A stretch of 64,000 nucleotides of DNA, from assembly GCF_001677475.2 (NCBI RefSeq), contig NZ_CP015229.1; one strand, given 5' to 3'. Source of the stretch: Escherichia coli. GTDB taxonomy: Bacteria > Pseudomonadota > Gammaproteobacteria > Enterobacterales > Enterobacteriaceae. Positions 59,691-62,807 of the stretch are shown here, piece after piece. Every line of letters begins with the position of its first letter. Positions within the stretch are counted from its first letter, which is position 1. A program made the position numbers and the translations under genes. Under the pieces are notes generated by a model. It was given only the letters and a program-made list of their open reading frames with translations. It did not search any database and was not told where the DNA came from.

Positions 59691-60826
59691 AGGCGTCACG
59701 CGGTAACCCTTTTTCAATCACCCGAACCAGACGCTGTTTTTTCGGCAATTGCACTTCGACTATGCACGCATTTCGCCTCTCGATTTGCTGCGCCATCGCC
59801 CACGCTATGTGCTCATCAAGAAGTGGGTGCTCACCTTTGCGACTCTCCAGCGCCGCCAGAATCGTTTCATCCCAGGGGGCATTGCCTAATGCCACGGCGA
59901 TATTACGCAGCCAGCGCAGGTGACCTATACGGCGAATCGCCGATCCTTCCGTGACTTTTAAAAACTTCTCTTCGCTCCAGGCGAATAACTCAATGAGTTC
60001 CGGTGCGTGTAGCGGCTTACGCGGGCTGAAATCGTCTTCTGTAGTGAGTTGCGAATAGCGATTCCACGGGCAGATAAGCTGGCAGTCATCGCAACCGTAA
60101 ATACGGTTTCCCATTAACGGTCGCAACTCTTCCGGGATCGCCCCTTCCAGTTCGATGGTGAGATAAGAGATACAGCGGCGAGCATCGACGGTATATGGCT
60201 CGACGATGGCACCGGTCGGGCAAATCGTCATACAGGCCACGCATTTACCGCATCCTTCCTCGACTGGTTGATCCACGGGCAGCGGAATATCGACCAGCAA
60301 TTCGCCTAAAAAGAAGAACGAACCGGCCTCGCGATTGAGGATAAGTGAGTGCTTACCTGTCCAGCCGAGCCCAGCTTTTTCAGCTAACGGGCGCTCGAGA
60401 ATAGGCGCAGAATCGACAAACGGTCTAAAATTCAGCGAAACACAATGTTGCTGAATCATCTCGCCCAGCTTTTTGAGTCGGTTGCGCAGAAGCTTGTGAT
60501 AGTCACGGCCCAGCGCATAACGGCTAACATAGCCGAGTTTGGGGTTTTTCAGCGTGCTGGCAAATGCGGCGTTAGCAGGAAGGTAATTCATCCGCACGCT
60601 GATCACGCGCAGCGTACCGGGCAATAACTCATGGGGGCGAGCGCGCAGCATACCGTGACGCGCCATCCAGTCCATTTCGCCGTGGTATTGTTTGTCCAGC
60701 CATGCTTGCAGTTTTGGCTCGGACTCGCTGAGATCGGTATCGGTAATACCTACCTGCTGAAAGCCCAGTTCCAGCCCCCACTGTTTAATTTTTTGCGCTA
60801 ACTGATTGAGATCGAGGGGCTCTGAC

Positions 60827-60828
<2 letters not shown>
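59689..60828 (-). CDS. queG: Epoxyqueuosine reductase QueG (YjeS), 379 aa
   Basis: ORF 59689..60936 recognised as QueG (ferredoxin-like Cys clusters CGKCVACMTICP and CDDCQLICPWN); the recognised N-terminus [18 protein letters not shown] starts at ATG 60828..60826. Confidence 0.88.

Positions 60829-62807
<1,979 letters not shown>

What the first reader, a model, noticed from the sequence alone, without database searches (positions are those of the whole stretch)
60826..60829. Divergent queG and nnr appear to share a CATG tetranucleotide as overlapping start codons
With the N-termini that best match the recognised proteins, queG starts at ATG 60828..60826 (minus) and nnr at ATG 60827..60829 (plus). 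The two divergent genes would then overlap by 2 nt at their starts, so each gene's promoter and RBS lie inside the other's coding sequence. nnr has a good SD (GAGGGG) but queG has none visible, so queG may be leaderless or start elsewhere. Start-codon overlap of divergent genes is uncommon and suggests mutually exclusive transcription or mis-annotated starts.
Basis: inference. Interest (0 to 1): 0.45.

Follow-up and report, generated by a model that had tools for sequence, protein, structure and literature searches.

The report
Overlapping divergent queG and nnr starts
The two back-to-back E. coli housekeeping genes queG and nnr really do begin on the same four bases (CATG), so each gene's expression signals sit inside the other's first codons; this layout is already in the reference annotation and the overlapping transcripts are already published.

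Summary
CATG lies at 60826-60829. It gives queG ATG 60828..60826 (-) and nnr ATG 60827..60829 (+), as RefSeq annotates E. coli K-12 (b4166/b4167) and a PGAP-annotated strain.

Both starts look genuine. The CATG junction is kept in 34 Enterobacterales species. In 6 of 33 analysed sequences no other canonical start is possible for either gene. The second nnr ATG (60842) is not conserved. nnr has a strong Shine-Dalgarno (GAGGGG, -7.2 kcal/mol) inside queG codons 4-6; queG has none.

queG is probably not leaderless. An extended -10 motif (TGGTATACT, 60868..60860, minus strand) lies 31 nt upstream of the queG ATG, inside nnr codons 12-14. A motif of this type is present in all 39 Enterobacterales sequences examined. 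That includes lineages where nnr has moved away or is absent. It predicts a roughly 25-nt Shine-Dalgarno-less leader.

Published data show double-stranded RNA across 60492-60847, and list queG-nnr among 16 divergent "excludons" of MG1655.

Verdict: real, conserved and mechanistically neat, but already known as an annotation and as an overlapping transcription unit. The embedded queG promoter is a sequence-based inference that I did not find described in the papers I searched. Interest is low to moderate.

The parts
60826..60829 (.). CATG tetranucleotide: CAT is the queG start on the minus strand, ATG is the nnr start on the plus strand; 2-nt overlap
   Evidence: All four bases are invariant in the 34 aligned sequences (window plus 33 Enterobacterales loci).
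59689..60828 (-). queG coding sequence (epoxyqueuosine reductase, 379 aa)
   Evidence: Matches PDB 5d08 (B. subtilis QueG) at E=7e-49, aligned from query residue 6.
60827..62374 (+). nnr coding sequence (bifunctional NAD(P)HX epimerase/dehydratase, 515 aa)
   Evidence: Matches PDB 2ax3 at E=1e-58.
60814..60819 (+). nnr Shine-Dalgarno GAGGGG, 7 nt before the ATG, embedded in queG codons 4-6 (Pro-Leu-Asp)
   Evidence: Pairing energy -7.2 kcal/mol. queG third-codon positions here are 0.82-1.00 conserved against a baseline of 0.4-0.6.
60860..60868 (-). Predicted queG extended -10 promoter element TGGTATACT (TGn + TATACT), embedded in nnr codons 12-14 (AGT ATA CCA)
   Evidence: A TGnTAnnnT motif lies 31-35 nt upstream of the queG ATG in 38 of 39 Enterobacterales loci. 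The exception is Proteus (L040), where the anchor coordinate is not the ATG. The set includes lineages without an nnr overlap. nnr third-codon positions are 1.00/1.00/1.00. The synonymous constraint is lost in the relocated Pectobacterium nnr. Promoter activity was not tested.
60829..60853 (-). Predicted 25-nt Shine-Dalgarno-less, U-rich queG leader (GUUUUUCUUCAUUGUAUGGUCCGUC), with transcription start about G60853; antisense to nnr codons 1-9
   Evidence: The start is inferred from -10 spacing. The base at 60853 is 0.97 conserved. The leader is essentially unstructured, -3.0 kcal/mol over 65 nt. The published dsRNA cluster reaches 60847.
60829..60839 (.). Conserved block GACGGACCATA (nnr codons 1-5; positions -1 to -11 of queG) with synonymous-site constraint
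   Evidence: Third-position conservation 0.91/0.97/0.85. In Pectobacterium the relocated nnr keeps the residues Thr-Asp-His with different codons (ACA GAT CAC), and the queG-proximal remnant keeps a similar nucleotide block.
60842..60844 (+). Alternative in-frame nnr ATG (codon 6), judged not to be the main start
   Evidence: Weak Shine-Dalgarno pairing, -3.2 kcal/mol. Codon 6 is ATG 9, TTG 6, GTG 3, CTG 3 and a non-start codon in 12 of 33 sequences.
60492..60847 (.). Region corresponding to published p19-captured dsRNA cluster S-361 (U00096.2 4,391,754-4,392,109; genes yjeS, yjeF; 5' overlap type)
   Evidence: PMC7373196 Table 2. Coordinates converted as window = v2 - 4331262, using and the 1,977-nt length difference between genome versions.
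60426..60431 (+). Low-confidence candidate -10 (TAAAAT) for nnr-sense transcription inside queG codons 133-135
   Evidence: The 16-nt block GGTCTAAAATTCAGCG, using the AGA arginine codon (rare in E. coli, from general knowledge), is identical in the window and 19 Enterobacteriaceae loci while flanking synonymous sites vary. There is no good -35 and no transcription-start data.

Best explanation
queG and nnr form a genuine, evolutionarily fixed head-to-head gene pair whose start codons share CATG.

nnr is translated from ATG 60827, using the Shine-Dalgarno GAGGGG that also encodes QueG residues Pro4-Leu5-Asp6.

queG is translated from ATG 60828 on an mRNA that most likely starts about 25 nt upstream, near G60853. 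That mRNA would be driven by a -35-independent extended -10 promoter (TGGTATACT, 60868..60860), which also encodes Nnr Ser12-Ile13-Pro14. The leader is short, U-rich, unstructured and lacks a Shine-Dalgarno.

The non-conserved N-terminal tails of both proteins therefore double as the neighbour's expression signals.

nnr-sense transcription must begin inside or beyond queG. The two mRNAs are thus complementary over several hundred nucleotides, form dsRNA that RNase III cuts, and make up a divergent excludon.

Shown: sequence, annotation, conservation, synonymous-site constraint, and published dsRNA and RNA-seq overlap. Inferred: promoter activity, the exact transcription start, and any regulatory consequence.
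For: Annotation: the same overlap appears in K-12 and in a PGAP-annotated genome.

Starts: the CATG junction is kept in 34 Enterobacterales species. The nnr start is the only possible start in 9 of 33 sequences, the queG start in 11 of 33, and both in 6 of 33. B. subtilis QueG aligns from E. coli residue 6, leaving no room for a downstream start. Shine-Dalgarno energies are -7.2 for nnr ATG1, -3.2 for nnr ATG6 and -2.2 for queG.

Synonymous constraint is confined to nnr codons 2-4 and 12-14 and queG codons 4-12, against a 0.4-0.6 baseline.

Promoter: a TGnTAnnnT motif lies at a fixed distance from the queG ATG in all 39 Enterobacterales loci examined. It moves closer to consensus (TGGTAAAAT) where nnr no longer overlaps it, in Brenneria L033 and Pectobacterium L036. 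It persists in Photorhabdus and Xenorhabdus, which lack nnr at this locus. The relocated Pectobacterium nnr loses the TTA and CCA codons. In outgroup gammaproteobacteria codon 14 is NCA (Pro, Ala, Ser or Thr), as a 'TGn' constraint predicts.

Experiments in the literature: dsRNA cluster S-361 covers window 60492-60847 and was also seen by dsRNA immunoprecipitation and operon mapping (PMC7373196). queG-nnr is one of 16 divergent core excludons of MG1655 (PMC12288877).
Against: I could retrieve no transcription-start, initiation-profiling or N-terminal peptide data for either gene. Searches found nothing, and the files or papers were not held. The consensus promoter scanner found no sigma-70 promoter here, but it requires a -35 match.

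In species where nnr overlaps, conservation of AGT-(A/T)TA-CCA is confounded with coding of Ser-Ile/Leu-Pro. The lineages without overlap descend from a common ancestor, so they are not fully independent.

Codon 6 of nnr is start-capable in 18 of 33 sequences. In one MAG (L020) a 1-nt indel makes the second ATG the only usable start, so dual initiation in Escherichia is not excluded.

The right edge of the dsRNA cluster (60847) is 6 nt short of the predicted transcription start. It does not exclude an additional leaderless start.
Confidence: 0.7

Rival explanations
1. nnr in Escherichia actually initiates at the second ATG (60842). The coding sequences would then not overlap, and a 13-nt spacer would separate the two starts. 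Alternatively, both ATGs are used.
For: Codon 6 is ATG, GTG or TTG in 18 of 33 sequences, nearly all of them Enterobacteriaceae. In MAG L020 a 1-nt indel leaves only this ATG in frame. Structural homology starts after residue 20, so the fold does not discriminate between the starts.
Against: Shine-Dalgarno pairing is only -3.2 kcal/mol, against -7.2 for ATG1. Codon 6 is CTG, AAG, GAA, GAG and other non-start codons in 15 of 33 sequences. The first base of codon 6 takes all four nucleotides, as expected for a variable residue rather than a start codon. In 9 of 33 sequences ATG1 is the only possible start. Thr-Asp-His is kept with all three codons changed synonymously in the relocated Pectobacterium nnr, so these codons are translated.
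Confidence: 0.12
2. queG is expressed from a leaderless mRNA that starts at the A of its ATG, driven by the -10-like TATGGT (60840..60835) five nucleotides upstream.
For: There is no Shine-Dalgarno. TATGGT plus 5 nt plus ATG is present and well conserved in Enterobacteriaceae.
Against: The hexamer's last T is lost in Serratia, Hafnia and Edwardsiella (GGC or GCC), and the first positions vary. A 5-nt gap between the hexamer and the start is shorter than the preferred spacing (general knowledge of sigma-70 promoters). Published dsRNA extends 19 nt upstream of the ATG. The yjeS translation ratio under kasugamycin was about 1.15, not resistant as leaderless mRNAs are expected to be (weak evidence). 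A better-conserved extended -10 lies 31 nt upstream.
Confidence: 0.08
3. The invariant AGT-(A/T)TA-CCA codons reflect constraints on nnr itself, either on the Nnr protein or on codon choice near its 5' end, and not a queG promoter. queG would then be transcribed from elsewhere.
For: In the 33 overlapping sequences the motif is inside nnr and encodes a conserved Ser-Ile/Leu-Pro. No promoter assay exists.
Against: The motif stays at the same distance from queG where the DNA no longer encodes Nnr: Brenneria (the remnant has a stop at codon 5), Pectobacterium L036, Photorhabdus and Xenorhabdus. The relocated Pectobacterium nnr uses TTG CCT instead. In outgroups the amino acid at codon 14 varies while its last two bases stay CA.
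Confidence: 0.1

Closest known systems
Divergent excludons / overlapping divergent operons in E. coli (Conway et al. 2014, PMC4161252; Huang et al. 2020, PMC7373196; Sanmartin et al. 2025, PMC12288877)
   Same: Neighbouring genes on opposite strands whose 5' transcript ends overlap, giving complementary RNAs and RNase III-generated dsRNA. queG-nnr (yjeS-yjeF) is itself listed in the 2020 and 2025 papers.
   Different: Most such pairs overlap only in their untranslated leaders across an intergenic region; ExcludonFinder reports a mean intergenic distance of 95 nt. Here there is no intergenic region at all, the coding sequences themselves overlap, and the core signals are written in codons. Reciprocal repression has not been shown for this pair.
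Short head-to-head (divergent) gene overlaps in prokaryote annotations (Lillo & Krakauer 2007, PMC2174442; Palleja et al. 2009, PMC2716372)
   Same: A 5'-5' overlap of two coding sequences, proposed to arise by 5'-end elongation into the neighbour. The class is strongly under-represented because initiation signals must be encoded in the partner gene.
   Different: Many annotated divergent overlaps are suspected to be start mispredictions. This one is supported by comparative evidence for both starts and is conserved across an order of bacteria.
Extended -10 (TGn) sigma-70 promoters
   Same: TG one base upstream of a TAnnnT hexamer, with no recognisable -35 element.
   Different: This one is identified by sequence and conservation only, and lies entirely inside a protein-coding sequence on the opposite strand.
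Leaderless mRNAs (for example lambda cI, tetR)
   Same: No Shine-Dalgarno before the start codon.
   Different: The predicted queG mRNA has a leader of about 25 nt. The available evidence argues against a transcription start at the ATG.

Membership tests
Divergent (head-to-head) overlapping gene pair | Two protein-coding genes on opposite strands whose 5' coding ends share nucleotides | tested here: met
   The CATG is shared. Both starts are the only possible canonical starts in 6 of 33 related sequences.
Divergent (head-to-head) overlapping gene pair | The annotated starts are the ones used in vivo | not testable with these tools
   No initiation-profiling or N-terminal peptide data could be retrieved. 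Comparative and Shine-Dalgarno evidence supports them.
Divergent excludon | Transcripts of the two neighbouring genes overlap at their 5' ends | not testable with these tools
   From the literature only. p19 dsRNA cluster S-361 is also marked positive for Lybecker dsRNA and for Conway overlapping transcripts. queG-nnr was found in at least 50% of 58 MG1655 RNA-seq samples.
Divergent excludon | Expression of one gene lowers expression of the other (mutual exclusion) | not tested
   The single-cell result in PMC12288877 is for excludon pairs in general, with no pair-specific data.
Extended -10 sigma-70 promoter | TG at -15/-14, one base, then a -10 hexamer with A at position 2 and T at position 6 | tested here: met
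   TGGTATACT at 60868..60860. The motif is present in all 39 Enterobacterales loci examined.
Extended -10 sigma-70 promoter | Directs transcription initiation about 7 nt downstream | not testable with these tools
   Indirect evidence only: the dsRNA reaches 60847 and the predicted +1 position 60853 is conserved.
Leaderless mRNA | Transcription starts at, or within a few nt of, the start codon | tested here: inconclusive
   No transcription-start data. Arguments against: dsRNA 19 nt upstream of the ATG, no kasugamycin resistance, and a poorly conserved, too-close -10 candidate.
QueG epoxyqueuosine reductase | Full-length sequence homology to solved QueG structures | tested here: met
   5d08 E=7e-49 over residues 6-363; 5d6s E=7e-42.
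Nnr (YjeF) bifunctional NAD(P)HX repair enzyme | N-terminal epimerase and C-terminal dehydratase domains homologous to TM0922 | tested here: met
   2ax3 E=1e-58 over residues 62-494.

The most novel reading that the evidence does not exclude
The N-terminal tails of both enzymes (QueG Met-Ser-x-Pro-Leu-Asp; Nnr Met-Thr-Asp-His ... Ser-Ile/Leu-Pro-His) may exist and be conserved mainly because they are the translated image of the partner gene's expression signals: the nnr Shine-Dalgarno, and the queG leader plus extended -10. On this reading the zero-spacer CATG layout is maintained by selection as a reciprocal antisense and RNase III switch. The switch would couple queuosine tRNA maturation (queG) to the nnr-tsaE-amiB-mutL-miaA-hfq superoperon.
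Probability: 0.25. Interest if true: 0.5.

Novelty: already known. Interest (0 to 1): 0.27.

Why it matters
Practically, the result says the reference starts of queG and nnr can be trusted, and that the overlap is not an annotation artefact.

Conceptually, it is a clean natural example of how far bacterial genome compaction can go. A Shine-Dalgarno, an mRNA leader and a core promoter element are all written in the first 15 codons of the opposite gene. The cost is visible as fixed codons (AGT, ATA/TTA and CCA in nnr). Natural 'un-overlapping' events in Pectobacterium and Brenneria show which gene each signal serves.

It also warns that synonymous recoding or N-terminal tagging of either gene will disturb the other. 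Finally, nnr heads what Conway et al. describe as the most complex operon they mapped in E. coli (it includes mutL, miaA and hfq), so any antisense control from queG would be of some regulatory interest.

Tried and rejected
1. The consensus promoter/terminator scan of 60500-61200 found nothing. The scanner demands a -35 match, so it is uninformative for extended -10 promoters.

2. An Rfam scan of 60300-61100 at E<=1 gave no RNA family.

3. Searches of supplementary tables for yjeS, yjeF, queG, nnr or coordinates found nothing useful.
- TRAINSPOTTER N-terminomics: no occurrences.
- Ribo-RET preprint: no supplementary files held.
- Cappable-seq: no occurrences; I do not know whether the tables are complete.
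- Kim 2012, E. coli/Klebsiella transcription starts: none.
- Romero 2014: none.
- Shigella M90T transcription starts: none.
- Conway 2014: no supplementary files held.
- Thomason 2015 and Lybecker 2014: papers not held.

4. Kasugamycin translatome: yjeS ratio about 1.15 and yjeF about 1.04, unremarkable. I used this only as weak evidence against a leaderless queG.

5. I considered a sigma-E-like pattern (AACT, 16 nt, TCTGA at 60800-60825). I rejected it because TCTGA is replaced by TGTGA, TGAGA or TGTGT in close relatives.

6. I considered the upstream in-frame nnr TTG at 60806 and the queG ATG at 60936. Both were rejected. They lack Shine-Dalgarno pairing. In-frame stops or missing start codons intervene in many species. 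For queG, the homologue boundaries also argue against an extension.

7. A second -10-like site at 60495-60500 shows no synonymous constraint and was set aside.

Full report
**1. What is in the sequence**

The window reads ...GATCGAGGGGCTCTGA-CATG-ACGGACCATACAATGAAG..., with CATG at 60826-60829. The plus-strand ATG at 60827 opens a 515-codon frame, [15 protein letters not shown].... The minus-strand ATG at 60828 opens a 379-codon frame, [18 protein letters not shown]....

The locus is orn, three tRNA-Gly genes, (yjeV), queG (-), nnr (+), tsaE, amiB. It is 97-99% identical to E. coli genomes.

The curated K-12 record annotates queG at 4392928..4394067 (-) and nnr at 4394066..4395613 (+). That is the same 2-nt overlap, and a PGAP-annotated strain has it too. 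The K-12 junction differs from the window at 1 of 130 nt.

**2. Are the starts right?**

I fetched 80 loci encoding QueG relatives.

- In 34 Enterobacterales species, from Escherichia, Citrobacter and Enterobacter to Pantoea, Serratia, Yersinia, Rahnella, Hafnia, Budvicia and Edwardsiella, the junction carries CATG at exactly the homologous place. In 33 of them Nnr residue 1 aligns on it. The exception is the MAG L020, which has a frameshift just downstream.
- I tested for alternative ATG, GTG or TTG codons and for in-frame stops. The nnr ATG is the only possible start in 9 of 33 sequences, the queG ATG in 11 of 33, and both in 6 of 33. The six are Mangrovibacter, Serratia silvae, two Yersinia and two Rahnella.
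- The second nnr ATG (60842) is not conserved. That codon is ATG 9, TTG 6, GTG 3, CTG 3 and a non-start codon in 12 sequences.
- Pairing with the anti-Shine-Dalgarno sequence is -7.2 kcal/mol for the first nnr ATG, -3.2 for the second and -2.2 for queG. The window background has a median of -2.5 and a 5th percentile of -6.5.
- B. subtilis QueG aligns from E. coli residue 6, so there is no room for a later queG start.
- In Pectobacterium betavasculorum a roughly 145-nt duplication has separated the genes. The relocated nnr still begins Met-Met-Thr-Asp-His, with all three codons changed synonymously (ACA GAT CAC). This shows that these codons are translated.

One caveat remains. In one metagenome-assembled genome (L020) a 1-nt indel leaves only the second ATG usable. 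Some use of that ATG in Escherichia therefore cannot be excluded.

**3. Where are the expression signals?**

I made a codon-aware alignment of the 33 sequences. Third-codon-position identity has a baseline of about 0.4-0.6. Sharp exceptions occur only next to the junction:

| Codons | Third-position identity | Sequence feature |
|---|---|---|
| queG 4-8 | 0.82 / 0.97 / 1.00 / 0.79 / 0.94 | nnr Shine-Dalgarno GAGGGG, read as Pro-Leu-Asp |
| nnr 2-4 | 0.91 / 0.97 / 0.85 | block just upstream of the queG ATG |
| nnr 12-14 (AGT-ATA/TTA-CCA) | 1.00 / 1.00 / 1.00 | complement of TGGTATACT |

On the queG strand the last block reads TGGTATACT, which is an extended -10 promoter motif (TGn + TAnnnT).

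- A motif of this type lies 31 nt (range 31-35) upstream of the queG ATG in 38 of the 39 Enterobacterales loci. In the 39th, Proteus, the motif is present but my anchor coordinate was not the ATG.
- It is still there where nnr no longer overlaps: Pectobacterium L029 (TGGTAACAT), and L036 and Brenneria (TGGTAAAAT, closer to consensus once freed from coding).
- It is also present in Photorhabdus and Xenorhabdus, which have no nnr at this locus.
- The relocated Pectobacterium nnr uses TTG CCT instead of TTA CCA.
- In other gammaproteobacteria the motif AGT-YTA-NCA is kept 29-41 nt from the queG start in most loci. Codon 14 varies only in its first base (Pro, Ala, Ser or Thr), as a 'TGn' constraint predicts.

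From this I infer a queG transcription start near G60853. That base is conserved at 0.97. The resulting leader would be 25 nt long, U-rich, unstructured and without a Shine-Dalgarno. The promoter has not been tested experimentally.

**4. Experimental literature**

- Huang et al. 2020 (PMC7373196) list p19-captured dsRNA cluster S-361 at U00096.2 4,391,754-4,392,109. The genes are yjeS and yjeF, and the type is 5' overlap. [quoted passage not shown]
- Converted to the window, this cluster is 60492-60847. It covers 337 nt of queG plus 19 nt upstream of its ATG. The queG-sense RNA therefore extends at least 19 nt beyond the ATG, which fits the predicted start and argues against a purely leaderless mRNA.
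- Sanmartin et al. 2025 (PMC12288877) list queG-nnr among only 16 divergent core excludons of MG1655. They also list yjeV-queG-nnr as a 'noncontiguous operon', so nnr-sense transcription may cross all of queG.
- Conway et al. describe yjeF...rlmB as the most complex operon in their data set, and report that 35% of divergent operons overlap at their 5' ends.
- Divergent coding overlaps are strongly under-represented in prokaryotes (PMC2174442).
- I could not retrieve base-resolution transcription-start or initiation-site data for this locus.

**5. Evolution**

Outgroup gammaproteobacteria already have very short queG-nnr spacers. They range from -2 (Tolumonas, also CATG) and -1 (CATTG in two Alteromonadales), through 6 and 17-25, up to about 100 nt. 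Their N-terminal tails are shorter.

This fits 5'-end elongation of both genes into a tiny intergenic region, fixed as CATG in Enterobacterales. The overlap was occasionally undone later by duplication (Pectobacterium, Brenneria), by insertion (L036) or by loss of nnr (Morganellaceae).

**6. Verdict**

The reading 'mis-annotated or leaderless' is not supported. 'Signals inside each other's coding sequence' and 'interfering transcription' are supported, the latter by published data for this very pair.

The feature is already known as an annotation and as an excludon. I did not find the embedded queG promoter, or the reading of the N-terminal tails as translated regulatory DNA, in the papers I searched. 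Both remain inferences. Interest is low to moderate.

Noticed in passing
window 62346-62374: nnr and tsaE overlap co-directionally by 29 nt. The tsaE ATG has no Shine-Dalgarno pairing (+0.4 kcal/mol), which suggests translational coupling or another non-canonical way of initiating.
   Followed up: no
window 59609-59706: The 17-codon yjeV ORF (59653-59706, +) overlaps the 3' end of queG by 18 nt, convergently. A terminator-like hairpin (59609-59631, +) lies just upstream. ExcludonFinder lists yjeV-queG as a convergent excludon and yjeV-queG-nnr as a 'noncontiguous operon'.
   Followed up: partly
window 59000-59419: There are three tRNA-Gly(GCC) genes. The spacer between the first two is 157 nt here and in strain AST215, but 36 nt in K-12 MG1655.
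   Followed up: no
L029 about 2355-2503, L033, L036 (Pectobacterium, Brenneria): The overlap has been undone in these lineages. In L029 a roughly 145-nt duplication leaves a 23-codon remnant ORF next to queG and a full nnr further away. In L033 the remnant has a stop at codon 5. In L036 a 321-codon ORF sits between the two genes.
   Followed up: partly
L037, L049, L041, L040 (Photorhabdus, Xenorhabdus, Proteus): nnr is absent from this locus and tsaE lies directly next to queG. An extended -10 motif is still present upstream of queG.
   Followed up: partly
L020 (MAG, 'Proteobacteria bacterium CTSoil_132'), about 2480-2502: A 1-nt insertion after nnr codon 4 puts the first ATG out of frame, so only the second ATG can make Nnr. 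This is either a real variant without coding overlap or an assembly error.
   Followed up: no
window 60419-60434: The 16-nt block GGTCTAAAATTCAGCG is invariant in the window and 19 Enterobacteriaceae loci. It lies in queG codons 131-137 and includes an AGA arginine codon, which is rare in E. coli. It contains a plus-strand TAAAAT that could be a -10 for nnr-sense or antisense transcription.
   Followed up: partly
window 60300-61400: The window is only 97-98% identical to most of 5,425 E. coli genomes, and at least 99% identical to just five. It therefore comes from an uncommon Escherichia lineage.
   Followed up: no
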